DNA of 64,000 nt from a bacterium (GCA_018672055.1 JABHGM010000001.1:507494-571493); one strand, 5' to 3'; counted from the first letter of the stretch, positions 11,962 to 35,532 are shown. A program made the numbers and translations. Notes: generated by a model not told the origin, from the sequence alone.

Positions 11962-13207
11962 CTTTTTAACTACACTTAAAATATCTTTAACTGCTCTTAA
12001 AGCACATAAGTTAAGGAGTTTTTTAACAATACTTGGTATTGTAATTGGTATTACTTCAGTAATACTTGTTTTTAGTGCAGGTGAAGGCTTAAAAGGATTA
12101 CTTCTTTCGCAAATGGAAGCCTGGGGTACTGATTTTGTTGAAGTGGAAATTAAAGCACCTGCTACTTCTAAAACATCATCTGAAAATGCTACTAATATAA
12201 TGATGGGGGTAAATATTACTACACTTGTTTTAGATGATGCTAAAGCTATTTTAGATCATCCTAATGTAGTAGATGCTTATTCTGGAATAATGGGACAGGC
12301 TATAATGACCAGAGAAGATGAATCAGATGTTATACAAATCTGGGGTGCTACTTCTTCATTTTTAAATATTGATTCATCAGAAATTGAATTTGGTAGATTC
12401 TATACTGAAGAAGAAGACAAATCTTTAGCTCGGGTTATAGTTTTAGGTAGTGAAGCTAAGAAAAAGTATTTCGGTAATCAAGAAGCTATTGGCAAAACTG
12501 TTAAAATTGGCAGACATAATTTTAAAGTAATTGGCGTCTTTAAAGAAAAGGGTACTGTAATGTTTATGAATCTTGATGAATGGATATATATGCCAATTAG
12601 GCCACTTCAAAAATTAATAATGGGTATTGATAATATTATGTTTGTTATAGGTAAACTTGAAGATACAGATATTTCTGAAGAGACGGCTCATGAATTAACA
12701 TTACTTATGAGAGATAGGCATGATATATCAGATCCTGATAAAGATGATTTTGCAGTAACTACTATGACTGAAATGATGGGTATCTGGGATACTATACTTG
12801 GTGGTGTTACTTTACTTCTTATGGCTATTGTAGCTGTTTCCCTTATTGTAGGTGGAGTAGGTATTATGAACATTATGTTTGTATCGGTATCTGAGAGAAC
12901 TAACGAGATAGGGCTTAGAAAAGCAGTTGGCGCAAGTCCTGGAAAAATACTCACTCAATTTCTATGGGAGGCCATTGTATTAACATTTAGTGGGGGAGTA
13001 ATAGGTATTATATTTGGTTTACTGATATCATTTTTAACTTCAGTTGGTGCTAAATCTCAAGGTTTTGATTGGCCGTTTGTAGTAAAACCTTTTTCTATTA
13101 TAATAGCTGTAAGTGTATCTGTTATTATTGGAATCATATTTGGGTTAATACCTGCACGTAAAGCAGCTAAGATGGATCCTATTGAAGCGCTAAGACATCA
13201 ACATTAA
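11954..13207 (+). CDS. ABC transporter permease, FtsX/MacB-like (tandem paralog)
   Basis: Same architecture as the previous gene, GVGIMNIM..ERTNEIGLRKAVGA; 8-bp overlap suggests translational coupling. Confidence 0.85.
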   Translation: MNNFLTTLKISLTALKAHKLRSFLTILGIVIGITSVILVFSAGEGLKGLLLSQMEAWGTDFVEVEIKAPATSKTSSENATNIMMGVNITTLVLDDAKAILDHPNVVDAYSGIMGQAIMTREDESDVIQIWGATSSFLNIDSSEIEFGRFYTEEEDKSLARVIVLGSEAKKKYFGNQEAIGKTVKIGRHNFKVIGVFKEKGTVMFMNLDEWIYMPIRPLQKLIMGIDNIMFVIGKLEDTDISEETAHELTLLMRDRHDISDPDKDDFAVTTMTEMMGIWDTILGGVTLLLMAIVAVSLIVGGVGIMNIMFVSVSERTNEIGLRKAVGASPGKILTQFLWEAIVLTFSGGVIGIIFGLLISFLTSVGAKSQGFDWPFVVKPFSIIIAVSVSVIIGIIFGLIPARKAAKMDPIEALRHQH

Positions 13208-13226
13208 TAGTCAGAACATAAAAGAC

Positions 13227-13254
13227 TTGACGTCCTTTTTTTTTATGTTATACT
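13227..13254 (+). promoter_or_regulatory. sigma70-type promoter of hrcA operon
   Basis: -35 TTGACG (13227-13232), 16-nt spacer, -10 TATACT (13249-13254); CIRCE starts 5 nt downstream. Confidence 0.65.
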
Positions 13255-13258
13255 AATT

Positions 13259-13285
13259 TTAGCACTCGTAGTATGAGAGTGCTAA
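13259..13285 (+). promoter_or_regulatory. CIRCE operator (HrcA binding site)
   Basis: Perfect consensus TTAGCACTC-N9-GAGTGCTAA immediately upstream of hrcA. Confidence 0.9.
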
Positions 13286-13299
13286 TAATATATATAAAT

Positions 13300-13977
13300 A
13301 TGGATAGCAGAAAAAGTGCTTTACTTAGCCAAATAATTAAGCAGCATATTAAAACAGCTCAACCTATTGGTTCTAAGTTAGTATTAGAAAAAAGTAAAAT
13401 TGACGTATCACCAGCTACTGTTCGTAATGATATGGCTACTCTTGAAAAAGATGGTTATATTGCTCAACCATATACTTCTGCAGGACGTATACCTACTGAA
13501 AAGGGTTATAAATATTATTTAGATAATTTTTTAAAGTTTCCTTCTTTAAATAACAAAGAGATTAAAATATTGGTTGATACTTTAAAAAAATATGATGAAG
13601 AATCTTTAGAGCTTACAGCAAAAGCTATGGGAAGAAGACTTGCCGATTTATCACGTTGTACTATTTTAATAGGTTTTGATCCTGATCATGTCTATTATAC
13701 TGGAGTCGCTAATTTACTTCGTAAACCAGAATTTATTAATCCTGAACGTATGTATGATTTAGGTTTAGTAATAGATCATTTAGATAAAGTAATGAATCAA
13801 ATATTTGATGAGATAGATGATACTGTAATAAAAATTGGAGAGAATAATCCATTTGATGGAAAGTGTAGCGTTATTTTAACGCCGTTTACTAAAGGTATCT
13901 TTGGAATACTGGGACCTATGAGAATGGATTATGAACATAATTTAAGTTTAATTAATTTTATTAAACAAAATGTCTAA
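13300..13977 (+). CDS. hrcA: heat-inducible transcription repressor HrcA
   Basis: MDSRKSALLSQIIKQHIKTAQPIGSKL.. winged-helix N-terminus. Start moved from the track's 13273 (which lies inside CIRCE) to the in-frame ATG at 13300. Confidence 0.8.
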   Translation: MDSRKSALLSQIIKQHIKTAQPIGSKLVLEKSKIDVSPATVRNDMATLEKDGYIAQPYTSAGRIPTEKGYKYYLDNFLKFPSLNNKEIKILVDTLKKYDEESLELTAKAMGRRLADLSRCTILIGFDPDHVYYTGVANLLRKPEFINPERMYDLGLVIDHLDKVMNQIFDEIDDTVIKIGENNPFDGKCSVILTPFTKGIFGILGPMRMDYEHNLSLINFIKQNV

Positions 13978-14428
13978 AGAAATTAAAAAGTTAGAAGCAA
14001 AATGTGATGAATATTTAAATGGTTGGCAAAGAGCTCAAGCAGATTATAATAATTTAAAAAAAGAATCAGATAAAAGATTGTCCGAAGTTAAAGAGTATGT
14101 TCAAGCTGATATGATCCTAAATTTTATATCAATCTATGATCATTTTAAATTAGCTTTAGAACACATTCCAGATGATAAGAAGAAAGATGATGCTTTAAGT
14201 GGTTTATTACATATTAAAAATGATTTTAAAGAGCTTTTAAAAAAGTTTAATATTAAAGAAATAGAAACACTGGGTAAAGAATTTAATCCAGAAATGCATG
14301 AAGCTATTTCTCAAGAAAAAAGTGATGAAAAAGAAAATATAATAATTAAAGAATTAAAATCTGGCTATACTATGAATGAAAAGGTTTTGAAACCGGCTCA
14401 AGTAGTAGTAAGTCAGGCTAAGGAATAA
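13970..14428 (+). CDS. grpE: nucleotide exchange factor GrpE (short form)
   Basis: Coiled-coil N-terminus (WQRAQADYNNLKKESDKR) and GrpE C-terminal region; gene order hrcA-grpE. Confidence 0.75.
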   Translation: MSKEIKKLEAKCDEYLNGWQRAQADYNNLKKESDKRLSEVKEYVQADMILNFISIYDHFKLALEHIPDDKKKDDALSGLLHIKNDFKELLKKFNIKEIETLGKEFNPEMHEAISQEKSDEKENIIIKELKSGYTMNEKVLKPAQVVVSQAKE

Positions 14429-14432
14429 ATAT

Positions 14433-14849
14433 ATGGCTATAGTAAAATGGACACCATTTTTAGAACCTTTTGAAGATGCAGATTTTCCAAGTTTAACACC
14501 TGTATCAGGTTTTATACCATCACTGGATATTTATCAGAATAAAAGTAATGTAATTGTTGAAGCACCACTTACAGGTGTTGATCCTAGTAAAGTAAAAATA
14601 ACTGTGGCCAATGATGTTTTAACCATTGAAGGTCATAGTCATAAACAAAGTGAAGTTGATGAAAAGAACTATTATCGTAAAGAAGTAAGATATGGTTCAT
14701 TCCATAGATCAATTTCTCTACCTTTGGCTGTTAATGGTGATAAAGCTAAAGCTGAATATGAAGAAGGTATTTTAAAAATAACTATACCTAAAATAGCTGA
14801 ATTAAAACCAAAATCAGTTAAAATAGAAGTTAAAAAGAAAAAGAAATAA
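14433..14849 (+). CDS. Hsp20/alpha-crystallin family small heat shock protein
   Basis: ACD signatures: DIYQNKSNVIVEAPLTGVDPSKVKITV..LTIEG, SFHRSISLP, GILKITIPK. Confidence 0.85.
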   Translation: MAIVKWTPFLEPFEDADFPSLTPVSGFIPSLDIYQNKSNVIVEAPLTGVDPSKVKITVANDVLTIEGHSHKQSEVDEKNYYRKEVRYGSFHRSISLPLAVNGDKAKAEYEEGILKITIPKIAELKPKSVKIEVKKKKK

Positions 14850-14850
14850 T

Positions 14851-15174
14851 ATGGATCAAAAAGGACAATTTAGTCTAAAATTAGTTCAAAAATGTCCAGT
14901 TTGTAGTAATGATTATACAACTGGTAAGATTCAAATTTTAGAAGAAGAAGGTAATTCATTTTTAGCCTATCTAACTTGTAGTTTTTGTTCATCCAGTATT
15001 TTAATCAGAGTAATGTCTATGCCACATGGTTTAGTTGGTAACGCCATACTTACTGATTTAGCTGCTGATGAAGTAATGTTTTTTAGCGAAGAAAATACTG
15101 TTTCCTCAAATGATGTTTTAGAAATTCATGATTACTTTTCTAAACAAGGGGATTTTATTGAAAAATTTAAATAA
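14851..15174 (+). CDS. hypothetical Cys4 zinc-ribbon protein
   Basis: CPVCSN ... CSFCSS pair of CxxC; 2-nt gap after hsp20, so probably in the same transcript. Confidence 0.45.
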   Translation: MDQKGQFSLKLVQKCPVCSNDYTTGKIQILEEEGNSFLAYLTCSFCSSSILIRVMSMPHGLVGNAILTDLAADEVMFFSEENTVSSNDVLEIHDYFSKQGDFIEKFK

Positions 15175-15177
15175 AAA

Positions 15178-15199
15178 AAGGGAACACGTTGGTTCCCTT
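15178..15199. terminator. hairpin terminator between convergent genes (A-run upstream, mainly serves minus strand)
   Basis: AAGGGAAC-acgttg-GTTCCCTT, preceded by AAAAAAA on the plus strand (T-run on the minus strand). Confidence 0.6.
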
Positions 15200-15211
15200 A
15201 AAGATTGTTGA

Positions 15212-15478
15212 TTAAGCCTTTGAAAAAGTTAATACTTTGCTTTTCCCTTCTTGCGACGAGTCCATAAATATTGTTATACCGTAATTGTGTAAATCAAAGT
15301 TCGTGAATCCTTCTTCTCTTTCAAGAGATACACCCTTAAGCTGTCGTGAGTTAATCAATACTTCGAAGAAGTTAGAAGCAGATTTAGGATCTCCTGATAA
15401 GCTACAATCGAATTTTATTGTAAAGATTTTATAATAACCTACCCATTGGTTATCAATTAATGTGAAAGTAACGTTCAT
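15212..15478 (-). CDS. hypothetical protein (orphan, antisense orientation inside heat-shock locus)
   Basis: 88-aa ORF from the track; only minus-strand gene in a 12-kb plus-strand block; no recognisable motif. Confidence 0.35.
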   Translation of the reverse strand: MNVTFTLIDNQWVGYYKIFTIKFDCSLSGDPKSASNFFEVLINSRQLKGVSLEREEGFTNFDLHNYGITIFMDSSQEGKSKVLTFSKA

Positions 15479-15548
15479 AATTCCCCCTATACCCTTTAAT
15501 TAATTAACAATAACTTAACAAATAATTAATAATTAGTCAATAAAACAT

Positions 15549-17501
15549 ATGTCAAAAATACTCGGAATCGATTTAGGTACTACAAATAGTGCCATGGCCG
15601 TTATGGAAGGCGGTCAACCAAAAATATTAGAAAATAAAGAAGGTAATAGAACCACTCCTTCCATGGTTGCTATTTCTAAAACTGGAGAGAGACTTGTTGG
15701 ACAACTTGCTAAGAGACAAGCTGTTACTAATCCAGAAAATACATTATTTTCTATCAAACGTTTAATTGGTAGACACTATAATTCTAAAGAAGTGCAAAAA
15801 GATATTAAAACAATGCCATATAAGATAGTACAAGCTGGCGAGGGCGTTAAGATTAAAATGGGTGATAAAGAACATACTCCTCAAGAAGTATCAGCTATGA
15901 TCTTACAAAAGTTAAAAGCTGACGCAGAAGAAAAGCTTGGTGAAAAGATAGAAGAAGCTATTATTACTGTACCTGCATATTTTGATGATTCACAAAGACA
16001 AGCCACTAAAGATGCTGGTGAAATTGCTGGTTTTAAAGTAAAACGTATTATTAATGAACCAACTGCTGCGGCTCTTGCTTATGGTTTTGATAAGAAAAAA
16101 GATCAACAAATCGCAGTTTATGACTTAGGTGGTGGTACTTTTGATATTTCAATACTTGATATATCAGCAGATACTGTTGAAGTTAAATCAACTAATGGGG
16201 ATACTCATTTAGGTGGTGATGACTTTGATTTAATCATAATTAATTGGATAATTGATGAATTTAAGAAAGATCAAGGTATTGATCTTTCAAATGATGCTAT
16301 GGCCCTACAAAGAGTTAAAGAAGCAGCTGAAAAAGCTAAAATTGAATTATCTACTTCAACTGAAACTGAAATTAACCAACCTTTTGTTACTACTGATGAT
16401 GCTGGTCCTAAACATTTAGTCATGAAGATAACTAGAGCAAAGTTAGAAGAATTAGTAGGTGATTTAGTTGCTAAGAGTTTTGAAGCAGTTGATAAAGCAA
16501 TAGCTGATAGTGGATTTAAAAAAGAAGAAATTCATGAAGTTATTATGGTTGGTGGTATGACTAGAATGCCTTTTGTTCAAAAGAAAGTAGAAGAATACTT
16601 TGGTAAGAAGCCTAATGTAACCGTTAATCCTGATGAAGTAGTAGCCTCTGGGGCTGCTGTTCAAGCTGGTGTTTTGCAAGGTGATGTTAAAGATGTATTA
16701 CTTTTAGATGTAACTCCATTAACTCTAGGTATTGAAACCTTAGGTGGTGTTAGTACTCCTTTAATTGAGAAAAATACTACTATACCTACATCCAAAGCGC
16801 AGATATTTTCAACTGCTGCTGATAACCAAACATCTGTTGATGTTCATGTATTACAAGGTGAAAGAGAAATGTCAGAAGGTAATAAAACACTTGGTAGATT
16901 TATATTATCCGGTATTCCACCATCTCCAAGAGGCGTACCTCAAGTTGAAGTAACCTTTGATATTGATGCTAATGGTATTTTAAATGTTAAAGCTCAAGAT
17001 AAAGCAACAGGTACTGAACAATCTATTACAATTACTGCATCTTCAGGACTTTCTAAAGAAGAAGTTGAAAAAATGAAGAAAGAAGCAGAGATACATGCTG
17101 ATGATGATAAGAAGAAGAAGGAATTAATAGATGTTAAAAATAATGCTGATTCTGTAGTATATCAAACAGAAAAGTTATTAAATGAAAGTGGTGACAAAGT
17201 ATCAGAAGATGTAAAGAAAGAAGTCACTGAGAAGATGGATGAGCTTAAGAAAGTAAAAGATGGTGATGATGTTGAAGCTATAAAAAAAGCTTTAGAAGAA
17301 GCAAATAAGACTATTCAAAAGATTGGTGAAGCTATGTATAAGGAACAAGCTCAAACACCTCCAGAAGGTGCTGAGGGTGGCGAAAAACCTAAAGAAGAAA
17401 CTCCAGTTGAAGGTGAATATGAAGATGTTAAAGAAGAAACCAAGGAAGACGTTAAAGAAGAAGTTAAGGAAGAAGAACCAAAACAAGAAGAAGCTAAATA
17501 A
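15549..17501 (+). CDS. dnaK: molecular chaperone DnaK (Hsp70)
   Basis: [30 protein letters not shown] motifs; KE-rich acidic C-terminal tail. Confidence 0.97.
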
Positions 17502-17515
17502 TTAAAATAAAATTT

Positions 17516-17938
17516 ATGAAAATCTATATTGGCTCAGACCATGCAGGTTATGAGTTAAAGCATTATTTAATGGATAATTTTAAAGATGTTGAATTTAAAG
17601 ATGTTGGTTATCTTGAATTAAATAAAGATGATGATTATCCTTCTGTTGCTCATGATTTAAGTAATAAAGTTCTAACTGAAAATGGAATTGGTGTTTTAAT
17701 TTGTGGTACTGGACTTGGTATGTGTATGGCAGCAAATAGACATAAAGGTATAAGAGGTGCTAATTGTTTAACCTCTGAAATGGCTACTATGGCTAGAAAG
17801 CATAATAATGCAAATATCCTATGTTTAAGTGCAAGACTTCTAAAGCAAGAAGATACATTAGAAATATTAAAAACTTTCTTAAATACTGAATTTGAAGGTG
17901 GTAGACATGAGAGAAGAGTTGAATTACTAGATAAGTAA
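17516..17938 (+). CDS. rpiB: ribose-5-phosphate isomerase B
   Basis: MKIYIGSDHAGYELK, LICGTGLGMCMAANR (RpiB/LacAB family). Confidence 0.85.
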   Translation: MKIYIGSDHAGYELKHYLMDNFKDVEFKDVGYLELNKDDDYPSVAHDLSNKVLTENGIGVLICGTGLGMCMAANRHKGIRGANCLTSEMATMARKHNNANILCLSARLLKQEDTLEILKTFLNTEFEGGRHERRVELLDK

Positions 17939-17939
17939 T

Positions 17940-18674
17940 ATGGATTTTAATCAAATTAAACAAATAGTTAAAGATAAATATCAAGATATAGCAAAAGGTG
18001 GTTCCAGTTGTCATGGTGATTGTAAGAGTAAAAAGATATCAGAAAGTATTGGCTATACTAAAGAAGAGTTAGAAAATGTAGGTAGCGCTAATATGGGGCT
18101 CGGTTGTGGTAATCCAGTAGCAATTAGTAATATTTTAGAAGGTGACGTAGTAATTGATTTAGGTAGTGGAGGTGGTATTGATTGCATTTTAGCTGCTAAA
18201 AAAGTTGGTCCTTCTGGTAAAGTAATAGGTATTGATTTTACTCAAGAAATGATTGATATTGCTACAAATAATGTAGAAAAGACTAATTATACTAATATTG
18301 AGTTTAAACGTGCTGATATAGAGAATTTGCCTCTAGAAGATGAATCAGTTGATAAGATAATAAGTAATTGTGTAATTAACTTAGCCTCAGATAAGAAGGC
18401 TGTATTTAATGAAGCTAAACGTGTCTTAAAGTTAGGTGGGAAAATGTATGTTTCAGATATAGTACTTCTTGAAGAACTAAGTAAAGAACAAAAAGTAGAT
18501 AAAGAATTAATCTCAGGTTGTGTAGCAGGTGCTATGCTTAAAGAAGATTATATTAATTTAATTAAAGAGTCAGGTTTTGAAGTAAATGTATTAAGTGAGA
18601 ATAAAGAAATAAGTAAAGAACAATATAATGGAATTAATTTAAGTAGCGTTGCTTTAGAAGTAATAAAGAATTAA
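17940..18674 (+). CDS. SAM-dependent methyltransferase, ArsM-like
   Basis: LGCGNP ... VIDLGSGGGIDCILAAKKVGPSGKVIGIDFTQEMI closely mirrors arsenite-methyltransferase (Methyltransf_31) motifs. Confidence 0.7.
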   Translation: MDFNQIKQIVKDKYQDIAKGGSSCHGDCKSKKISESIGYTKEELENVGSANMGLGCGNPVAISNILEGDVVIDLGSGGGIDCILAAKKVGPSGKVIGIDFTQEMIDIATNNVEKTNYTNIEFKRADIENLPLEDESVDKIISNCVINLASDKKAVFNEAKRVLKLGGKMYVSDIVLLEELSKEQKVDKELISGCVAGAMLKEDYINLIKESGFEVNVLSENKEISKEQYNGINLSSVALEVIKN

Positions 18675-19751
18675 ATGAGTAAAGATTACTATAGTATTCT
18701 AGGAGTAGATAAAAAAGCTACCCAAGATGATATAAAAAAAGCTTTCAGAAAGAAAGCTCATGAACATCACCCAGATAAGGGTAATGGTAATGCTGATAAG
18801 TTTAAAGAACTTAATGAAGCTTATCAGGTTCTTGGTAAACCCGAAAAAAGACAGCAGTATGATCAATTTGGATCTAATTTTAATGGAGCTCAAGGACCTC
18901 AAGGTTTTTCTGGTGGTTTTAATACAGGTGGTACCCGTGTAAACGTTGATGATTTAGGAGATATCTTTGGAGATATCTTTGGTGGTGGTTTTGGTAGAGG
19001 CAGAACTCAAAGCAGAAGACCAAGTAGAGGCGCAGATATTGAAGCTAGATTATCTATTTCTTTTGAAGAAGCAGTATTTGGTGTAGAAAAAGTAATTGAT
19101 TTGTCTAAATATGTTTTATGTACTAAGTGCAGTGGTAATGGAGCGGAACCTGGAGCTTCAATAGATACATGTAAGAAGTGTCAGGGTTCTGGGCAAATAC
19201 AAATTACACGACAGACAATCTTCGGAGCTTTTCCGTCAGTAGCTACTTGTCCTGAATGTCAGGGAGCTGGTAAAATTCCAAGTAAAAGATGTACTAAGTG
19301 CCATGGTGAAGGTAGACATAAGGAAAAAGAAACTATTAATATTAAAATACCTAAAGGTATAGATAATAATGAAACTATTAGATTATCTGGTAAAGGTGAA
19401 GTAGGTGAAAAGGGAAGTATTTCAGGTGATTTATATATTCATATTCAAGTATCAGCTTCACGTTTATTCCAAAGAGAAGGCTATAATGTGTATTCAGAAA
19501 AGTTAATTCCATTTAGCATATTTACTCTTGGTGGTAAAACAAAAATTAGAACAGTTCATGGAGATGTTAATTTAAAAATACCAGCTGGTACTACTGCTGG
19601 TAAAGAATTTGTTTTAAAAGGCAAAGGTGTGCCTAAATTAAGAGGTAGAGGCACAGGAGATCACTTTGTTAAAGTAAATGTAGCTATACCTAAGAGTTTA
19701 AATAAAAAGCAAAAGAAATTATTAAATGAAATAGATAAAGAAGGTATTTAG
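18675..19751 (+). CDS. dnaJ: molecular chaperone DnaJ
   Basis: J-domain with HPD (AHEHHPDKG), Gly-rich region, four CxxCxGxG zinc-finger repeats, C-terminal domain. Confidence 0.95.
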   Translation: MSKDYYSILGVDKKATQDDIKKAFRKKAHEHHPDKGNGNADKFKELNEAYQVLGKPEKRQQYDQFGSNFNGAQGPQGFSGGFNTGGTRVNVDDLGDIFGDIFGGGFGRGRTQSRRPSRGADIEARLSISFEEAVFGVEKVIDLSKYVLCTKCSGNGAEPGASIDTCKKCQGSGQIQITRQTIFGAFPSVATCPECQGAGKIPSKRCTKCHGEGRHKEKETINIKIPKGIDNNETIRLSGKGEVGEKGSISGDLYIHIQVSASRLFQREGYNVYSEKLIPFSIFTLGGKTKIRTVHGDVNLKIPAGTTAGKEFVLKGKGVPKLRGRGTGDHFVKVNVAIPKSLNKKQKKLLNEIDKEGI

Positions 19752-21301
19752 TTTATTTTATAAACTATACTATCATTTGTTTCAATCATTAGTTCAAAAT
19801 AGTCAGAATTATTATTTAAGATGTTACTTAGCTTTAAGTAACTTTTATTTATTTTTGATAACCATATATATTCTGAGTTAAAACTATTTAATATACTGTC
19901 TGCTATAGCCTTGGCAGTTTTTTTATTCTCTGGACATTCATCTATTTTAGAATCTAAGGCACATTGTTTAGTTGATATATTGTGCCATAGGTAATACATT
20001 TTATTATTGTAGTTATATAAAAATATTGGATCTAGGCCTACTACATAGTAATTGTGATGATTGTAAAAGAATAGTCTTGGAAAAGCGTCCCATGAAGTAT
20101 TAAAGACTATTGATTCAGAAGGCGTATTTTTATTTAACCATATAGCAGTTTCTTTAAATGTTTCAATTGAGTTAGTTGTTTTGTAGTCTGTATATATTTG
20201 TTTTAGAGGTAAGAATATTAAAGATAGGGTGGTTAAAGTAATTATTAATTTAAATGATAAGTTATTTAATTTATTATATATTTTTTTTATGTATTCATTA
20301 ATTTCAGGAATATTCATAGATATTTTGTAAATATAAGCAACTGATAATATTAGGATAGGTGCGAGGTATTCTATGAATCTATTATACTTAATTGTTAACA
20401 TAATAAATATCAGAGATAATAGTAGAAGAAAATAATAATTTATTTTATTTTTTAATTCAATTTCAACTTTAAAAAATATTTTAAGTAAAAATAGAGTTAT
20501 TAAAGAAATAATAAGTAAAAAAATAGGTAATGATGTTACTAGTAAAGCTAAAAAATTTAAATTTTCGAGTTCAATTGGAATCAATATATTGAGGTTATTA
20601 AAACTTGATAATCCTGATGTATAGTTGTTTATTATTAAATTAACAAAATTTGATGTTTCTGGATGAAATAATAATCCTAAAATACATCCTGACATTGTAA
20701 TTAATATTATTTGCCAATCAATTCTTTTTTCGATTACTAATTTAGTTAATAAATAACTACCTACTATAATTGATATGATAAATATTGAACCATATGAAGA
20801 TAATATAAAAAGTATAGGCCATAATAGTAATAGCCATTTTTTTTGTTTTAAAATAATATATATACCAATTATTGATAGTGATAATGTAAATAGAAGAGGC
20901 CTGGCTAATTGAAGTCTAAATAAAAATAGACTTGAAGAGAATAATAAAATAAATAGCCATATCTCAGGCTTTTTTATATTTAATTTATTTAAAATATAAT
21001 AGAAAAGTGTGAAGAATAATGCAGAGAATAAACTAATAAATATTTTTAAATTTAATGGAAAATTAAAATATGTAAATGGATGCATGGTTACATGGAATAA
21101 ATATCTTTGATCTGAAAAATTATTATTTAAATCAGTATAATATAACCAAGGAAAGTTATCTGAAATATTCTCTTCAAACATTATTTTTGAATATTTACTA
21201 TGAAAGAAAGCATCAACTCCTAATAAATCATTCGAAAATAATTGTATGCTAAAAGTAATAGTAAAAAATATGATGTATATGTATATAATTTTTTTCTTCA
21301 T
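19748..21301 (-). CDS. GT-C-fold membrane glycosyltransferase-like protein (ArnT/PMT/STT3-type)
   Basis: About 12 TM helices; first extracytoplasmic loop has LGVDAFFHSKY, resembling the acidic/aromatic catalytic loop of GT-C enzymes; C-terminal soluble domain of about 130 aa. Confidence 0.35.
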   Translation of the reverse strand: MKKKIIYIYIIFFTITFSIQLFSNDLLGVDAFFHSKYSKIMFEENISDNFPWLYYTDLNNNFSDQRYLFHVTMHPFTYFNFPLNLKIFISLFSALFFTLFYYILNKLNIKKPEIWLFILLFSSSLFLFRLQLARPLLFTLSLSIIGIYIILKQKKWLLLLWPILFILSSYGSIFIISIIVGSYLLTKLVIEKRIDWQIILITMSGCILGLLFHPETSNFVNLIINNYTSGLSSFNNLNILIPIELENLNFLALLVTSLPIFLLIISLITLFLLKIFFKVEIELKNKINYYFLLLLSLIFIMLTIKYNRFIEYLAPILILSVAYIYKISMNIPEINEYIKKIYNKLNNLSFKLIITLTTLSLIFLPLKQIYTDYKTTNSIETFKETAIWLNKNTPSESIVFNTSWDAFPRLFFYNHHNYYVVGLDPIFLYNYNNKMYYLWHNISTKQCALDSKIDECPENKKTAKAIADSILNSFNSEYIWLSKINKSYLKLSNILNNNSDYFELMIETNDSIVYKIN

Positions 21302-21384: not shown

Positions 21385-24300
21385 CTAGATAGGTGTTGAG
21401 AAAACTTTTATAGTTATCTCATAAGCCATATCAGGGTTATCGTTTATCCAGTCAAGACGTAGATGTCCTCGTTCATCGTAAAAATCATCATTTACTGCGA
21501 GGTAGATCAACATATCTTGATCATAGTGATTTGTTATTACACCATTTGAACCAATATAAGTCCATCTGGAGTCGTATGGGAATCTAGCGTAAACTCCTCC
21601 CAGTTTTTTTTGATTAATTGATACTTGACCATTTTTTAATGGCCAGGAACCAATTGAGGTTCGATTTTTATTCCAATCAGCTACGTAGCCGTTTGGGTTA
21701 GTGAAGCGATTTGCGCCATCACAGCCTGATCCTGGACCGATATTTCCTTTTCCTTTTGCTTGGATTTGTGCCGAGCTACTTGGTTTAAGAATTATCGATG
21801 AATTACCATTTCCTGTTCGTAAAGGCAAGTCTATAACATAGTAGTCATCCTTTTTTTCTAAATTCAAGATTTCTTCTCGAATTGGGAATTCAACTATTGT
21901 TTTAACTTCCTTTATGGAGACGCTTGATATTTCATGTATTATTTCAGATTCTTCATTTTCATCATCTGATGAATCCGATGGATCAATAATATCATTTATT
22001 ACTTCCCCAATACTTCCTATCCACTGGTTGAATTTGCTTTCAAAGAAGGCAGGGTCTTGGATCGCATAAACAATATTGGTTCGATTATTATGTTCATCTA
22101 AGGGACGCACTACAAGATAATCGTCATCCTGTTTTACTTTTTCCAAAACAATCACTTTTGTTGTATCAGTAATTACCTCTTTAATCCTATTATTTATAGT
22201 ATAAGTTGTATTATCAACAGACCTATTTACAGTCACATCATATTTATAAAAATTATGAATAGATAGTATTTGTGGTTTGTCAAAAAAACTTGATACAGTG
22301 GGATATCCTTTAAAAACAAAGAAGATAAATAGGATAGATACCGTGGTTTGTACAAGATATACAAATCCTTTCAGCTTCACTATTTTTTTACCAGATTTTA
22401 TTTCATAATCTTTCATTGCTCGATCAACAGCGATCAAGATGAATGATAGAAAGAAGGCCCAAAAGAAATAAGGATGTTTGAGTTCAGCAAAATAAGTACC
22501 TGGTTGAGCATAGTGTCCAACGAGAGGGAATATTACAGTTGAGAATAACAAGGTATAGATCGTAGCTTGAAATGTAACTTTTATTGCTTCACCAGAGAAC
22601 TTTGATTTATTTGTTACCGTTGCTATCTGCTCTTTAACTTTATCAAAGGGATCACCTATATCTGGAAATTTTAGATCTGACTTCCCATCTATTATCATTT
22701 CAATCTTATCAGCATCTACTCCAAGAACAGTGAGAATGCCCGCAAACATTGATTTGATAGTATTGATACTAATATTAAGAGGCCATGTAGTGCCTTTCCA
22801 TAATAGAGTACCACTACTTTTTCCTAACCAAATGGCTGGTTCCAAGGTTACATTCTTACCAAGTTCTACCATGAAAATAGCAGATTTTAAGGCCGTGAAT
22901 GATAATCCATAGAATCCCCATAATGACAATACTAATAGTATTGATAAGAGAATTAGAATAAATCCTGTTATAGCTGGATTTATCAATGCTAACTTAGCTA
23001 AACATATTAATACTATTGCCAATATTAACATTTTACCCAAACCTTCAAAGTCTTTCTTTTCAAAAGATTCATATAAGCTTTTTAAAGCATTATATATTAT
23101 CTTAATACCACCCCATAGTATTGGAGGTCCTATAAGAATCATTGAAAGTAAATAAGCAATAGTTGTCAAAATGTGACCTTCTCCAAGCGATACATTAGAA
23201 TAATAATAAGCAACTAAAGACATTAAGACCAAAAGTGCTACTAAGATTAAAACAGTTAATTTATTTATCCAATAATTTATCCATGAGTCTACTGAGTAAA
23301 TAACTGATTTAAGTGTTACCATGGTAATTATTAAGAATATCTTGAGTAGATTTAAGAAGTGAGTTACTTTTAACAATATCAAGAATTGAGTGATTATTAT
23401 TAAACTAACAAGTACTTCAGCAAGTATCTTACTATCAAAGTAAAGTATACTTAATCCAGACAGAATCATCATAACTGTTAATAAGAGTAAAAAACCTAGT
23501 ATGACTGTGTAATCTTTTATCTTATCTGTGAGTTTACTACCCTGACAAAAGCTTTTACCTTTTTTAATCTGAATGCCTAAAAATAACCATACCCCTAAAG
23601 TTAGGAATGTTGGAATACTTAAAAGATTTTCAATTAAAGCAGCAAAAGTTGATTTGGGTTTTTCATCTTTTTCATCAAACGGTATAGCCTTTCTACCTGT
23701 TATTCCGTTATATTCTCTGTACATCTTACCAAAAAAATCTTTCAGAGTTTTTTTCATAGGGTTGAGCACAGAATTAGCTCCTGTTGATGCATCATCCAAA
23801 ATTTTAACAAAATATATTTTTACATTTTGAGGAATTCTGAACTCTTTATCCTTAACTTTTTCCCAAAAGTAACGCAGACCACTATCACCTAATAATCTTC
23901 TTGTATCGAGTTTATCGATTAGTTGTTTGACCAACTCTTTCTTAGAAAGATTTTTATCAGCTTCAAGTTCATTGAATTCTGCTATGATTGAATCGATTGT
24001 TTCACAAACTTTTGTGAAATTTTCCTTATCCTGCCAATCAATGCCAGAAATATTTTGTCTTGCTGATTCAACGAATTTCTTTTTAGGTTTATTGTCTTTC
24101 GTATCATTTTTCTTATTAACTTTTGCATCATTTTTGCTATTTGCAGTAGTTGCGCCAAAAGTACTAGTTAAGATAACTTCGCCAATAAGTATTATTGACA
24201 TATTATCAAGGTGACCTTTAGGCAAAGTTTTACAAAGTCTTAGGTAGGATTTGTAATTTTCTGGTTTATTTGCTGTATGTTTTTTATAGTATGTATCTAT

Positions 24301-24480
24301 AATTGCATGTGCTGAGTTATCATGAGGTCCTTTTGTAATTCCAAGATCAGATAGCATTTTATCACTAAGAGCTGTAAATAATTTTCTACCACCATCTGTT
24401 GCTGCATCTTTTACTGCAGAAGCAACCGTTTCACCAAAAACCCTGCCGGCACCGTCGCTTACTTGACTTATTGTACTCAT
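21385..24480 (-). CDS. giant polytopic membrane protein (about 1032 aa): soluble N-domain, about 10-12 TM core, about 330-aa C-terminal domain with lectin-like (PA-IL/PA14-like) module
   Basis: Start set at MSTISQ (ATG 24480-24478), which has an AAGGAG RBS 8 nt upstream; the track start at 24576 lies inside the promoter. C-terminus TYIGSNGVITNHYDQDMLIYLAVNDDFYDERG resembles, from memory, the LecA/PA14 beta-sandwich lectin signature. Confidence 0.6.
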   Translation of the reverse strand: MSTISQVSDGAGRVFGETVASAVKDAATDGGRKLFTALSDKMLSDLGITKGPHDNSAHAIIDTYYKKHTANKPENYKSYLRLCKTLPKGHLDNMSIILIGEVILTSTFGATTANSKNDAKVNKKNDTKDNKPKKKFVESARQNISGIDWQDKENFTKVCETIDSIIAEFNELEADKNLSKKELVKQLIDKLDTRRLLGDSGLRYFWEKVKDKEFRIPQNVKIYFVKILDDASTGANSVLNPMKKTLKDFFGKMYREYNGITGRKAIPFDEKDEKPKSTFAALIENLLSIPTFLTLGVWLFLGIQIKKGKSFCQGSKLTDKIKDYTVILGFLLLLTVMMILSGLSILYFDSKILAEVLVSLIIITQFLILLKVTHFLNLLKIFLIITMVTLKSVIYSVDSWINYWINKLTVLILVALLVLMSLVAYYYSNVSLGEGHILTTIAYLLSMILIGPPILWGGIKIIYNALKSLYESFEKKDFEGLGKMLILAIVLICLAKLALINPAITGFILILLSILLVLSLWGFYGLSFTALKSAIFMVELGKNVTLEPAIWLGKSSGTLLWKGTTWPLNISINTIKSMFAGILTVLGVDADKIEMIIDGKSDLKFPDIGDPFDKVKEQIATVTNKSKFSGEAIKVTFQATIYTLLFSTVIFPLVGHYAQPGTYFAELKHPYFFWAFFLSFILIAVDRAMKDYEIKSGKKIVKLKGFVYLVQTTVSILFIFFVFKGYPTVSSFFDKPQILSIHNFYKYDVTVNRSVDNTTYTINNRIKEVITDTTKVIVLEKVKQDDDYLVVRPLDEHNNRTNIVYAIQDPAFFESKFNQWIGSIGEVINDIIDPSDSSDDENEESEIIHEISSVSIKEVKTIVEFPIREEILNLEKKDDYYVIDLPLRTGNGNSSIILKPSSSAQIQAKGKGNIGPGSGCDGANRFTNPNGYVADWNKNRTSIGSWPLKNGQVSINQKKLGGVYARFPYDSRWTYIGSNGVITNHYDQDMLIYLAVNDDFYDERGHLRLDWINDNPDMAYEITIKVFSTPI

Positions 24481-24566
24481 TTTAATACTCCTTGTATTAT
24501 TTGTTGTTTGTTTTTTGTATTTTTTTGTCAATTTGCTACCTCTTATTAGAGGGTAATAAACATCTA

Positions 24567-24595
24567 AAAGTATCATATTTATTACATTTTGTCAA
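24567..24595 (-). promoter_or_regulatory. promoter of giant membrane-protein gene (shares 40-nt module with rnpB promoter)
   Basis: Minus strand: AAACATTGACAAAAT, -35 TTGACA, 17-nt spacer, -10 TACTTT; aligns almost base-for-base with the rnpB promoter. Confidence 0.5.
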
Positions 24596-35187: not shown

Positions 35188-35220
35188 AAAAAAGACCCCT
35201 GATAAGTTCAGGGGTTTTTA
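35186..35220. terminator. bidirectional rho-independent terminator
   Basis: AAAAAAAAG-ACCCCTGA-taagt-TCAGGGGT-TTTTT, shared by convergent genes. Confidence 0.8.
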
Positions 35221-35472
35221 GTAAATTGATCGTGTTTGAGTAATTCTAGAATTAGAGCTTAAGAAGTCTTCCGGCGGATTATAGTCATGAGTTAATAATC
35301 TATTTTGAGTTAAAGAATAAATTAATACTATTTTATTACCTTCTGAAGTCATAATTTCTAAAGCAGGATTATCTCGATTAGTTGTTTTCCTTATAATCCT
35401 ATAATATCTAGAAAATTTATCAACTAAATAATGATTTACTTCTGCTGATAGGAAGTCTTTTTTTGAAATCAT
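35218..35472 (-). CDS. hypothetical small protein (orphan, minus strand)
   Basis: 84-aa ORF; faint resemblance to RelE/YoeB-like C-terminus (IVLIYSL..RLLTHDY), not reliable. Confidence 0.3.
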   Translation of the reverse strand: MISKKDFLSAEVNHYLVDKFSRYYRIIRKTTNRDNPALEIMTSEGNKIVLIYSLTQNRLLTHDYNPPEDFLSSNSRITQTRSIY

Positions 35473-35532
35473 ATCATCTCCTAATTTGTTACTTTATTTT
35501 TAATCTATTTTTCTTTTTTTGTCAACTTAGTC

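What the first reader, a model, noticed from the sequence alone, without database searches (positions are those of the whole stretch)
13227..19751. Rearranged heat-shock locus: CIRCE-hrcA-grpE-hsp20-ZnRibbon, antisense orphan, then dnaK-rpiB-ArsM-like MTase-dnaJ
A perfect CIRCE sits 5 nt after a TTGACG-16-TATACT promoter and overlaps the first in-frame ATG of the hrcA ORF, so the real start is 13300. hsp20 and a Cys4 ORF are appended to hrcA-grpE. dnaK is split from grpE by a convergent orphan gene and has no CIRCE of its own. rpiB (pentose-phosphate) and an arsenite-methyltransferase-like MTase are wedged between dnaK and dnaJ with gaps of 14 nt, 1 nt and 0 nt, which implies co-transcription with the chaperones.
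Basis: partly seen in the sequence, partly recalled or inferred. Interest (0 to 1): 0.5.

Follow-up and report, generated by a model that had tools for sequence, protein, structure and literature searches.

The report
CPR heat-shock operon with passenger genes
This is the standard HrcA/CIRCE-controlled chaperone operon of a tiny-genome Patescibacteria (CPR) bacterium, into which this lineage has inserted an arsenite-methyltransferase-type gene, a ribose-5-phosphate isomerase gene and a small reverse-facing orphan gene; it is mostly ordinary.

Summary
A perfect CIRCE (13259-13285) is the only one in 64 kb. It starts 4 nt after TTGACG-16-TATACT. The ATG at 13273 lies inside its spacer, and hrcA starts at 13300 (225 aa). 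Gene calls and the 14/1/0-nt gaps are correct, and dnaK has no CIRCE.

"Rearranged" is only partly right. The window is a marine-metagenome Patescibacteria contig. In 44 related loci the normal order is CIRCE-hrcA-grpE-(hsp20)-(Zn-ribbon)-dnaK-(DUF3467)-dnaJ, so hsp20 and the Cys4 gene belong to the ancestral operon.

Three things are lineage-specific:
- An ArsM-type methyltransferase between dnaK and dnaJ. It is also there in relatives with 80% and 88% identical DnaK. Homologues at 61-66% identity sit in unrelated contexts.
- rpiB, found only in the closest relative.
- A reverse-strand orphan cassette with an SD-like motif and its own terminator, foreign codon usage and no homologues. Another relative has an unrelated cassette in the same slot.

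No plus-strand terminator occurs before a conserved hairpin 150 nt past dnaJ, so one CIRCE-driven transcript is plausible but unproven. Tight gene spacing is normal for this genome. Interest is modest: a new variant of a known operon type.

The parts
13227..13254 (+). Sigma-70-type promoter: -35 TTGACG, 16-nt spacer, TG-extended -10 TATACT
   Evidence: The same cTTGACg-N16-18-TATACT followed by CIRCE is conserved in L082 and L086, and with variant -10 boxes in L002-L004.
13259..13285 (.). CIRCE operator (TTAGCACTC-N9-GAGTGCTAA), perfect, starting 4 nt after the -10 box
   Evidence: unique in 64 kb, expected 0.01. A CIRCE with up to 3 mismatches lies upstream of hrcA in 36 of 44 related short-HrcA loci. 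As RNA it would form a 9-bp hairpin of -12.7 kcal/mol, z = -3.6.
13300..13977 (+). hrcA, short Patescibacteria form (225 aa): winged helix plus C-terminal domain, without the roughly 100-115-aa internal block of full-length HrcA
   Evidence: The AF2 model has pLDDT 89.9 and matches 1STZ with TMq 0.77.
13970..14428 (+). grpE (152 aa), overlapping hrcA by 8 nt
   Evidence: PF01025, E = 3.5e-40.
14433..14849 (+). hsp20 / alpha-crystallin small heat-shock protein (138 aa)
   Evidence: PF00011, 67 bits. It occupies the same position in L002-L008, L010, L012, L017, L082 and L155-L157.
14851..15174 (+). Cys4 zinc-ribbon protein of unknown function (107 aa), a Patescibacteria-only family fixed between hsp20 and dnaK
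   Evidence: 56 homologues, all from Patescibacteria or unnamed sources. C15/C18/C43/C46 and a GNAILTDL motif are invariant. It has the same position in L006, L082, L086 and L155-L157. The fold search was uninformative.
15178..15199 (-). Intrinsic terminator for the minus-strand cassette: 8-bp stem followed by UUUUUUUAUUU on the minus strand. On the plus strand it is preceded by an A-run and has no U-tract.
   Evidence: A hairpin lies at the same position in L082 and L155.
15212..15478 (-). 88-aa orphan ORF preceded by the SD-like motif GGGGGA; coding status uncertain
   Evidence: No homologue among 5.8e9 proteins or 1.84e9 cluster representatives. Codon score is 0.001, below every true-gene window. 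GC3 is 0.30 against 0.14 for the genome's genes. GC skew flips to negative here. There is weak similarity (12/30) to a 35-aa ORF at the same place in L082.
15549..17501 (+). dnaK (650 aa)
   Evidence: TIGR02350, 954 bits; PF00012.
17516..17938 (+). rpiB, ribose-5-phosphate isomerase B family (140 aa)
   Evidence: NF004051 scores 166 bits against a cutoff of 135. TIGR01120 scores 136.9, just under its cutoff of 138.65. It has this position only in L082/L088.
17940..18674 (+). ArsM-type SAM methyltransferase (244 aa), short form
   Evidence: NF008823 scores 284 bits against a cutoff of 263. C56, C144 and C194 align with CmArsM Cys72, Cys174 and Cys224. It lies between dnaK and dnaJ in L082, L088 and L086 as well.
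18675..19751 (+). dnaJ (358 aa), overlapping by 4 nt the end of a convergent 517-aa membrane-protein gene
   Evidence: TIGR02349, 412 bits.
19900..19927 (+). Candidate operon terminator: a 6-bp stem followed by TTTTTTTATT, embedded in the 3' end of the convergent gene
   Evidence: It is the only plus-strand terminator-like site in 12900-20100. The homologous hairpin 150 nt past dnaJ in L082 carries a both-sides pair change (T-A to A-T).

Best explanation
The locus is the class-I (HrcA/CIRCE) heat-shock operon of a Patescibacteria bacterium.

Ancestral form. The clade's ancestral arrangement is one transcription unit: promoter-CIRCE-hrcA-grpE-hsp20-ZnR-dnaK-dnaJ.

Regulation.
- Shown: a conserved sigma-70-type promoter is followed 4 nt later by a perfect CIRCE.
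- Inferred: CIRCE therefore lies over the transcription start. A dimer of the short HrcA bound there should block initiation. When unfolded proteins titrate the chaperonin that keeps HrcA active, the operon should be derepressed.

Three insertions in this lineage.
1. An ArsM-type methyltransferase entered the dnaK-dnaJ slot first. That slot holds DUF3467 or other genes in related genomes.
2. rpiB entered the same slot later.
3. A small reverse-oriented cassette (SD-like motif, ORF, minus-strand terminator) of foreign composition entered the ZnR-dnaK slot.

Transcription (inferred).
- The only hairpin between ZnR and dnaK lacks a U-tract on the plus strand.
- The first plus-strand terminator lies about 150 nt past dnaJ.
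- CIRCE-controlled transcription therefore probably still reads through into dnaK-rpiB-MTase-dnaJ. An additional weak internal promoter just upstream of dnaK is possible.

Passengers (inferred). rpiB and the methyltransferase are most likely passengers that use the operon's transcription in a tightly packed genome, not dedicated chaperone partners.
For: Promoter and CIRCE:
- CIRCE is unique and perfect.
- The promoter-plus-CIRCE geometry is conserved in L082, L086 and L002-L004. In other relatives CIRCE wraps the -35 or -10 box.

Ancestral order:
- Among 44 short-HrcA loci, 36 have a CIRCE with up to 3 mismatches, and the dominant orders are hrcA-grpE-(hsp20)-(ZnR)-dnaK-dnaJ.
- L156 and L157 have ZnR-dnaK gaps of 27 and 5 nt and no insertions, so a single operon is ancestral.

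Insertions:
- L082/L088 have dnaK-rpiB-MTase-dnaJ and L086 has dnaK-MTase-dnaJ.
- Methyltransferase homologues at 61-66% identity sit in unrelated contexts such as YebC/RuvB or HAD/ABC-F.
- DUF3467 occupies the dnaK-dnaJ slot in five relatives.

Transcription:
- There is no plus-strand terminator before 19900, and that hairpin is conserved in L082.
- The minus-strand terminator is conserved in position.

Cassette and genome packing:
- The cassette has atypical codon usage and GC3 and an SD-like motif, in a genome where 1 of 49 genes has one.
- The genome is tightly packed, with a median same-strand gap of 4 nt.

Precedent: the B. subtilis CIRCE-controlled dnaK operon also carries methyltransferase genes and has an internal constitutive promoter (PMC2952846).
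Against: - There are no transcript data, so read-through across 15175-15548 is inferred only from the absence of a U-tract.
- Convergent transcription from the cassette could block or process the long transcript.
- Promoter-like hexamer matches are not above chance in this AT-rich DNA (24 found against 36 expected). A dnaK-proximal promoter can therefore be neither shown nor excluded.
- The methyltransferase has stayed between dnaK and dnaJ across three lineages (DnaK 80-100% identical). That could reflect selection for co-regulation rather than hitch-hiking.
- The short HrcA scores below the TIGR00331 equivalog cutoff (176.5 against 197.2). Its repressor activity and chaperonin dependence are untested.
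- groESL is not in the window.
Confidence: 0.68

Rival explanations
1. There are two separate units. CIRCE/HrcA controls only hrcA-grpE-hsp20-ZnR. The antisense cassette and its hairpin insulate the downstream genes. dnaK-rpiB-MTase-dnaJ is then transcribed from its own CIRCE-less, essentially constitutive promoter just upstream of dnaK.
For: - A 374-nt spacer holds an opposing transcription unit and a stable hairpin (-11.6 kcal/mol on the plus strand).
- A promoter-like TTAACA-18-AATAAT lies at 15504-15533, and the stretch before the dnaK ATG is conserved in L082 and L086.
- No CIRCE lies near dnaK.
- B. subtilis has an internal constitutive promoter in its dnaK operon.
- Saccharibacteria loci place separate CIRCEs before dnaK and dnaJ, which shows that split regulation does occur in CPR (L034, L037, L042, L047).
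Against: - The hairpin has no U-tract on the plus strand.
- The promoter match is at chance level.
- In relatives without the cassette there is no room for a promoter, with gaps of 5-27 nt.
- A main chaperone with no stress control at all would be unusual.
Confidence: 0.25
2. The linkage is functional. The ArsM-type enzyme, and possibly RpiB with its catalytic cysteine, was recruited into the HrcA regulon. Arsenite-induced protein misfolding would then derepress both the chaperones and arsenite methylation, without any ArsR sensor.
For: - The methyltransferase meets the published ArsM criteria: a SAM domain plus Cys72/174/224 equivalents (criterion from PMC5552862).
- Arsenite inhibits nascent protein folding and induces chaperones (PMC4010505).
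- The gene has stayed between dnaK and dnaJ in three lineages with DnaK 80-100% identical.
- No ars regulator lies next to it here.
Against: - The arrangement is confined to a narrow lineage.
- Nearest homologues (61-66% identity) are stand-alone genes in unrelated contexts.
- Tight packing of unrelated genes is the rule in this genome.
- The substrate is untested.
- rpiB is absent from L086.
Confidence: 0.15
3. The 88-aa 'orphan' is not a protein-coding gene. It would be a chance or decaying ORF inside an inserted, fast-evolving non-coding segment, possibly an antisense RNA unit, so the 'convergent gene' would be an annotation artefact.
For: - No homologue exists anywhere.
- The codon score lies below all true-gene windows and within the top 8% of wrong-frame segments.
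- The closest relative has only 35 codons there, with 12/30 identity, while flanking proteins are 73-88% identical.
- The single SNP in 12,267 nt between two strains is a non-synonymous change in this ORF.
Against: - An SD-like motif lies 5 nt before the ATG, in a genome that almost never has one.
- A proper minus-strand terminator lies 12 nt past the stop.
- GC skew flips in the coding sense.
- The same SD-ORF-terminator layout occurs in L082 and, with an unrelated ORF, in L155.
Confidence: 0.4

Closest known systems
Bacillus subtilis heptacistronic dnaK operon (hrcA-grpE-dnaK-dnaJ-yqeT-yqeU-yqeV) under CIRCE/HrcA
   Same: - A sigma-A/sigma-70-type promoter is followed by CIRCE.
- hrcA comes first, followed by grpE, dnaK and dnaJ.
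- Non-chaperone SAM methyltransferase genes ride in the operon.
- Internal promoters are possible (PMC2952846).
   Different: - The methyltransferase here is ArsM-type, not PrmA/RsmE/MtaB.
- It lies between dnaK and dnaJ, not after dnaJ.
- hsp20 and a Zn-ribbon gene sit between grpE and dnaK.
- An opposing small cassette interrupts the operon.
- HrcA lacks the internal block of about 100-115 aa.
Consensus Patescibacteria heat-shock operon seen here (CIRCE-hrcA-grpE-(hsp20)-(ZnR)-dnaK-(DUF3467)-dnaJ)
   Same: - Same promoter/CIRCE layout.
- Same short HrcA.
- Same order of hrcA, grpE, hsp20, ZnR, dnaK and dnaJ.
- Same upstream MacB-type ABC genes as in L006, L082, L086, L155 and L156.
   Different: - rpiB and the ArsM-type gene occupy the dnaK-dnaJ slot.
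- A reverse-oriented orphan cassette occupies the ZnR-dnaK slot.
ArsM / AS3MT arsenite S-adenosylmethionine methyltransferases (e.g. CmArsM, PDB 4FS8/4KW7)
   Same: - Rossmann-fold SAM domain.
- Cysteines aligned with Cys72, Cys174 and Cys224.
- Score above the NCBIfam NF008823 cutoff.
   Different: - Only 244 aa, so it lacks the C-terminal domain of CmArsM.
- It is not in an ars operon and has no ArsR next to it.
- It is embedded in a chaperone operon.
- Its activity is untested.
Thermotoga maritima HrcA (PDB 1STZ)
   Same: - The winged-helix N-terminus aligns 3-124 to 17-137.
- The overall fold matches, with TMq 0.77.
- The cognate CIRCE is retained.
   Different: - About 100-115 residues in the middle are missing.
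- From my recollection of the 1STZ paper (not retrieved here; one search found nothing), this corresponds to the inserted dimerising domain.

Membership tests
HrcA/CIRCE class-I heat-shock regulon | CIRCE inverted repeat TTAGCACTC-N9-GAGTGCTAA in the promoter region | tested here: met
   Perfect match at 13259-13285, unique in the window. It is conserved upstream of hrcA in relatives.
HrcA/CIRCE class-I heat-shock regulon | Operator overlaps or abuts a vegetative (sigma-70/sigma-A type) promoter | tested here: met
   TTGACG-16-TGtTATACT ends 4 nt before CIRCE. The geometry is conserved in L082, L086 and L002-L004. The transcription start itself is not mapped.
HrcA/CIRCE class-I heat-shock regulon | HrcA repressor with N-terminal winged helix and HrcA C-terminal domain | tested here: inconclusive
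   PF01628 scores 53 bits against a cutoff of 22, but only profile positions 107-213 match. TIGR00331 scores 176.5, below its cutoff of 197.2, in two stretches. The fold matches 1STZ. An internal block of about 100-115 aa is absent.
HrcA/CIRCE class-I heat-shock regulon | Heat or unfolded-protein induction and GroEL-dependent HrcA activity | not testable with these tools
   No expression data are available. groESL is not in the 64-kb window.
ArsM arsenite methyltransferase | SAM-binding methyltransferase domain | tested here: met
   PF13847, 126 bits; NF008823, 284 bits against a cutoff of 263.
ArsM arsenite methyltransferase | At least 3 of the 4 conserved cysteines (CmArsM Cys44, 72, 174, 224; criterion from PMC5552862) | tested here: met
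   C56, C144 and C194 align with Cys72, Cys174 and Cys224. C24 and C28 in the N-terminus are candidates for Cys44, but that region was not aligned.
ArsM arsenite methyltransferase | As(III) methylation activity or arsenic-responsive expression | not testable with these tools
   Needs biochemistry. No ars genes were found among the window ORFs scanned (the scan was not exhaustive). One 55%-identical homologue (L097) lies next to an ArsR-family HTH gene.
RpiB ribose-5-phosphate isomerase B | Score above the family model cutoff | tested here: met
   NF004051 scores 165.7 against 135, and TIGR00689 scores 160 against 88. The equivalog TIGR01120 scores 136.9, marginally below 138.65.
DnaK/DnaJ/GrpE chaperone system | Equivalog-level matches for all three proteins | tested here: met
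   DnaK: TIGR02350, 953.7 against 822.55. DnaJ: TIGR02349, 412.2 against 377.2. GrpE: PF01025, 137.8 against 25.8.
Sigma-32 (RpoH) heat-shock promoter upstream of dnaK | TTGAAA-N13-15-CCCCATNT above chance and conserved | tested here: not met
   GTGAAA-15-CCCCCTAT lies at 15462. However, 14 such matches with up to 2 mismatches occur in the window against 11.4 +/- 3.5 in shuffles. The spacing and the -10 are not conserved in L082.

The most novel reading that the evidence does not exclude
There are two parts to the most novel reading.

1. In this Patescibacteria lineage the HrcA/CIRCE circuit would double as an ArsR-independent arsenic sensor. Arsenite-damaged proteins would derepress an operon that makes both the chaperones and the ArsM enzyme that removes the cause.

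2. The ZnR-dnaK junction would be a recurrent landing site for reverse-oriented, SD-bearing ORFan cassettes. Their antisense transcription would tune how much CIRCE-driven transcription reaches dnaK.
Probability: 0.12. Interest if true: 0.6.

Novelty: new variant of a known kind. Interest (0 to 1): 0.3.

Why it matters
The regulatory logic of Patescibacteria (CPR) is almost undescribed. No paper in the searched library combined 'candidate phyla radiation' with HrcA.

What this locus shows:
- The classical CIRCE/HrcA circuit is retained in these reduced genomes, with a truncated HrcA.
- The clade has its own operon members: hsp20, a Cys4 protein of unknown function and, in several relatives, DUF3467.
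- The dnaK-dnaJ and ZnR-dnaK junctions are places where unrelated genes get inserted.

If the ArsM-type gene is really co-induced with the chaperones, that would be a simple route to metalloid detoxification control in organisms with very few regulators. If not, the locus is a clean example of operon hitch-hiking in a streamlined genome.

Tried and rejected
- Second CIRCE near dnaK: none at up to 3 mismatches in the window, and none at up to 6 mismatches in 14800-15600.
- Sigma-32-type promoter: one match at 15462, but at chance frequency and not conserved.
- Rfam families: nothing in the locus. The only hits in the window are tRNAs and RNase P elsewhere, so no known RNA thermometer or leader is present.
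- Orphan homology: the word-index search, an exhaustive HMMER search of 1.84e9 cluster representatives, Pfam, NCBIfam and PHROGs gave nothing. The only other matches were weak ones to a repeat in two giant proteins, inflated by repetition.
- Mobile-element signatures around the cassette: only short AT-rich repeats. One 15-nt, 87% inverted pair (15153/15531) is probably chance.
- L155's 151-aa cassette ORF is not related to the orphan (E = 0.49-1.1).
- Literature on the HrcA domain boundaries (the 'inserted dimerizing domain') could not be retrieved. That label therefore rests on my memory of the 1STZ paper.
These were recovered through the look-up of encoding contigs instead.

Full report
**Source and organism**

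The window is part of a 200-kb contig of JGI metagenome 3300024258. A second strain, from sample 3300024256, differs by 1 nt in 12,267.

All close HrcA and Zn-ribbon homologues come from Patescibacteria/Parcubacteria-group MAGs, several of them named Komeilibacteria. The DNA is 29% G+C with GC3 of 0.14. Genes are packed mostly on one strand (55 of 62 ORFs). The median same-strand gap is 4 nt. Only 1 of 49 genes has an SD-like motif.

**Observation check**

- CIRCE lies at 13259-13285 with 0 mismatches. It is the only match in 64 kb at up to 3 mismatches (expected 0.01).
- It follows TTGACG-16-(TG)TATACT (13227-13254) after 4 nt.
- The ATG at 13273 lies in the CIRCE spacer.
- The start at 13300 is backed by a 225-aa database twin and by the N-terminal alignment of 23 homologues. 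JGI's caller used 13273.
- Domain searches confirm HrcA, GrpE, Hsp20, DnaK, RpiB, an ArsM-type methyltransferase and DnaJ.
- The Cys4 protein has invariant CPxC...CxxC.
- Gaps are -8, 4 and 1 nt in the first half and 14, 1 and 0 nt in the second.
- No CIRCE-like site lies near dnaK, even at 6 mismatches.

**What relatives show**

I fetched 80 GTDB loci through an HrcA alignment. I then retrieved closer relatives through exact-protein look-ups and mapped the nine proteins onto all of them.

Findings across the clade:
- Of 44 loci with a short HrcA, 36 have a CIRCE with up to 3 mismatches within 200 nt upstream.
- The dominant orders are hrcA-grpE-dnaK-dnaJ, hrcA-grpE-hsp20-dnaK-dnaJ and hrcA-grpE-hsp20-ZnR-dnaK-dnaJ.
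- L156 and L157 (ZnR 70% and 58% identical) have ZnR-dnaK gaps of 27 and 5 nt and dnaK directly followed by dnaJ. A single uninterrupted operon is therefore ancestral.
- hsp20 and the Zn-ribbon gene are thus normal members of the operon, not additions.
- Even the upstream MacB-type ABC genes and the downstream Dus and CorA genes are syntenic.

The promoter is conserved together with CIRCE: cTTGACg-N16-18-TATACT-N3-4-CIRCE in L082 and L086, and similar in L002-L004. Other relatives place the -35 TTGAC inside the CIRCE spacer, or the -10 inside it. In every layout the operator overlaps the promoter, as expected for repression by occlusion.

**Lineage-specific features**

*1. The ArsM-type methyltransferase.*
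- It lies between dnaK and dnaJ in the window.
- It has the same position in the closest relative (L082/L088: HrcA 74%, DnaK 88%, MTase 80% identical) and in L086 (HrcA 56%, DnaK 80%, MTase 64%).
- A metagenome scan found 66 further homologues. Those at 61-66% identity sit in other Patescibacteria contexts, such as YebC/RuvB or HAD/ABC-F.
- One homologue at 55% identity sits beside an ArsR-family regulator.
- The gene therefore moves around, and it entered this slot once in a narrow lineage.

*2. rpiB.* It occurs in this slot only in the window and in L082/L088, so it was inserted later, or lost in L086.

*3. The dnaK-dnaJ slot is variable in general.* Five relatives carry a DUF3467 gene there, and L004 has 5 kb of other genes, including another methyltransferase.

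*4. The ZnR-dnaK spacer holds a minus-strand unit.*
- It consists of the SD-like GGGGGA, 5 nt, an ATG, an 88-codon ORF, and an 8-bp hairpin followed by U7 on the minus strand. The hairpin lies within four bases of the ZnR stop codon.
- The ORF has no homologue among 5.8e9 or 1.84e9 proteins.
- Its codon usage falls below every true-gene window, and its GC3 is double that of the genome's genes.
- GC skew flips in the coding sense.
- L082 has, at the same place, AAGGAGGAG, a 35-codon ORF and a hairpin with a U-run. That ORF shares 12/30 identity with the orphan's N-terminus.
- L155 has an unrelated 151-codon ORF with AAGGAGA and a minus-strand terminator.
- All three cassettes have higher GC3 than the host dnaK.
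- I read this as recurrent insertion of small foreign cassettes at this junction. Whether the 88-aa product is made remains open.

**How it probably works**

- Shown: the promoter-plus-CIRCE layout, the presence of HrcA, and the ancestral single-operon layout.
- Inferred: HrcA represses at CIRCE and is released under proteotoxic stress.
- Shown: in 12900-20100 the only plus-strand terminator-like site is the hairpin at 19900-19917 followed by a T-run. It lies 150 nt past dnaJ, inside the convergent gene. It is conserved at the same offset in L082, with one pair changed on both sides.
- Shown: the hairpin after ZnR has an A-run before it and no U-tract after it on the plus strand.
- Inferred: CIRCE-controlled transcripts can therefore run from hrcA to dnaJ, carrying rpiB and the methyltransferase.
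- An extra promoter just upstream of dnaK (TTAACA-18-AATAAT, 15504-15533) cannot be excluded. Such matches are at chance level in this DNA.
- Opposing transcription of the cassette may attenuate or process the long transcript (speculative).

**The methyltransferase**

- It passes the NCBIfam arsenite-methyltransferase model (284 bits against a cutoff of 263).
- It aligns to CmArsM with cysteines at the Cys72, Cys174 and Cys224 positions.
- It therefore meets the published criterion of a SAM domain plus at least 3 of the 4 conserved cysteines (PMC5552862).
- Arsenite is known to inhibit nascent protein folding and to induce chaperones (PMC4010505). Co-induction with DnaK/DnaJ would therefore make physiological sense.
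- However, the narrow distribution of the arrangement and the genome-wide habit of packing unrelated genes 0-15 nt apart (32 of 53 pairs) make hitch-hiking the more economical reading.
- There is precedent. The B. subtilis CIRCE-controlled dnaK operon carries three modification-enzyme genes (yqeT, yqeU, yqeV) and has an internal promoter (PMC2952846).

**HrcA**

- The repressor is the short form, typical of Patescibacteria. All of the 120 best hits are 186-254 aa.
- Alignment with full-length HrcAs from Firmicutes and Actinobacteria shows one contiguous missing block of about 100-115 residues.
- Residues 3-124 align to 1STZ residues 17-137.
- A confident AF2 model (pLDDT 89.9) matches 1STZ with TMq 0.77.
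- From memory, the missing block is the inserted dimerising domain. I could not retrieve the paper.
- CIRCE is unchanged, so dimeric binding must be achieved without that domain.

**Verdict**

The interpretation needs correcting from 'rearranged locus' to 'ancestral CPR HrcA/CIRCE operon with three lineage-specific insertions'. This is a new variant of a well-known operon type and is of modest interest.

The more interesting leads are side products:
- the truncated HrcA;
- the Patescibacteria-only Zn-ribbon operon member;
- the recurrent SD-bearing antisense cassettes;
- the possible, unproven coupling of ArsM to the heat-shock regulon.

Noticed in passing
window 13300-13977; alignment A1; loci L002-L049: HrcA in this organism and in its Patescibacteria homologues is about 220-240 aa. 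It lacks one contiguous internal block of about 100-115 residues that full-length HrcA (330-356 aa) has. The canonical CIRCE is nevertheless retained upstream in 36 of 44 such loci.
   Followed up: partly
window 14851-15174; P0122-P0177; L006, L082, L086, L155-L157: A 107-aa Cys4 protein family (invariant CPxC, CxxC and GNAILTDL) is found only in Patescibacteria. In every locus examined it lies between hsp20 and dnaK in the HrcA operon. It has no Pfam family and no informative structural match.
   Followed up: partly
L002 13861-14193; L003 13618-13920; L004 14292-14615; L010 4638-4952; L017 8782-9096: A DUF3467 gene sits between dnaK and dnaJ in five related Patescibacteria operons. No DUF3467 gene is found in the window.
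   Followed up: partly
L155 7387-7842 (-): A relative carries an unrelated 151-aa minus-strand ORF in the same ZnR-dnaK slot as the window's orphan. It has a strong SD (AAGGAGA) and its own minus-strand terminator. This suggests a recurrent insertion site.
   Followed up: partly
window 35196-35497: A second small minus-strand ORF (35218-35472, 84 aa, no Pfam or PHROG hit) is wedged between two plus-strand genes. It has an AGGAGA SD 4 nt before its ATG and a bidirectional-looking hairpin at 35196-35215. Its layout resembles the orphan cassette, but its GC3 is host-like.
   Followed up: partly
whole window: The genome is essentially free of Shine-Dalgarno motifs: 1 of 49 genes has an SD-like 4-mer within 20 nt upstream. 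Several genes have TATAAT about 7-10 nt before the start codon, which suggests leaderless or very short-leader mRNAs.
   Followed up: no
L086 11346-11726: In one relative a 23S_rRNA_IVP / bAvd-like four-helix-bundle gene occupies the place that hsp20 holds in the other operons.
   Followed up: no
window 19748-19927; L082 9625-9815: dnaJ and a convergent 517-aa membrane-protein gene (weak STT3-like hit) overlap by 4 nt. The likely operon terminator hairpin lies 150 nt inside that convergent gene's coding sequence and is conserved in L082 with a both-sides pair change.
   Followed up: partly
L005-L008, L012 (about 60-120 nt upstream of hrcA); L009: Relatives show alternative CIRCE/promoter geometries. 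In some, the -35 TTGAC sits inside the 9-nt CIRCE spacer with TATAAT 7 nt after the right arm. In L009 the -10 TATAAT is inside the spacer.
   Followed up: no
L034, L037, L042, L047 (Saccharibacteria loci): In Saccharibacteria, grpE and dnaK are separated by other genes. Additional perfect or near-perfect CIRCE copies lie directly upstream of dnaK, and of dnaJ in L034 and L037. There the operon has been split, with the operator duplicated.
   Followed up: no
window 27205-29712 and 21385-24576: An 835-aa VirD4/TraG-like coupling-protein homologue (weak T4SS-DNA_transf and TrwB hits) and a 1063-aa membrane protein with no known domains lie just downstream of the locus.
   Followed up: no
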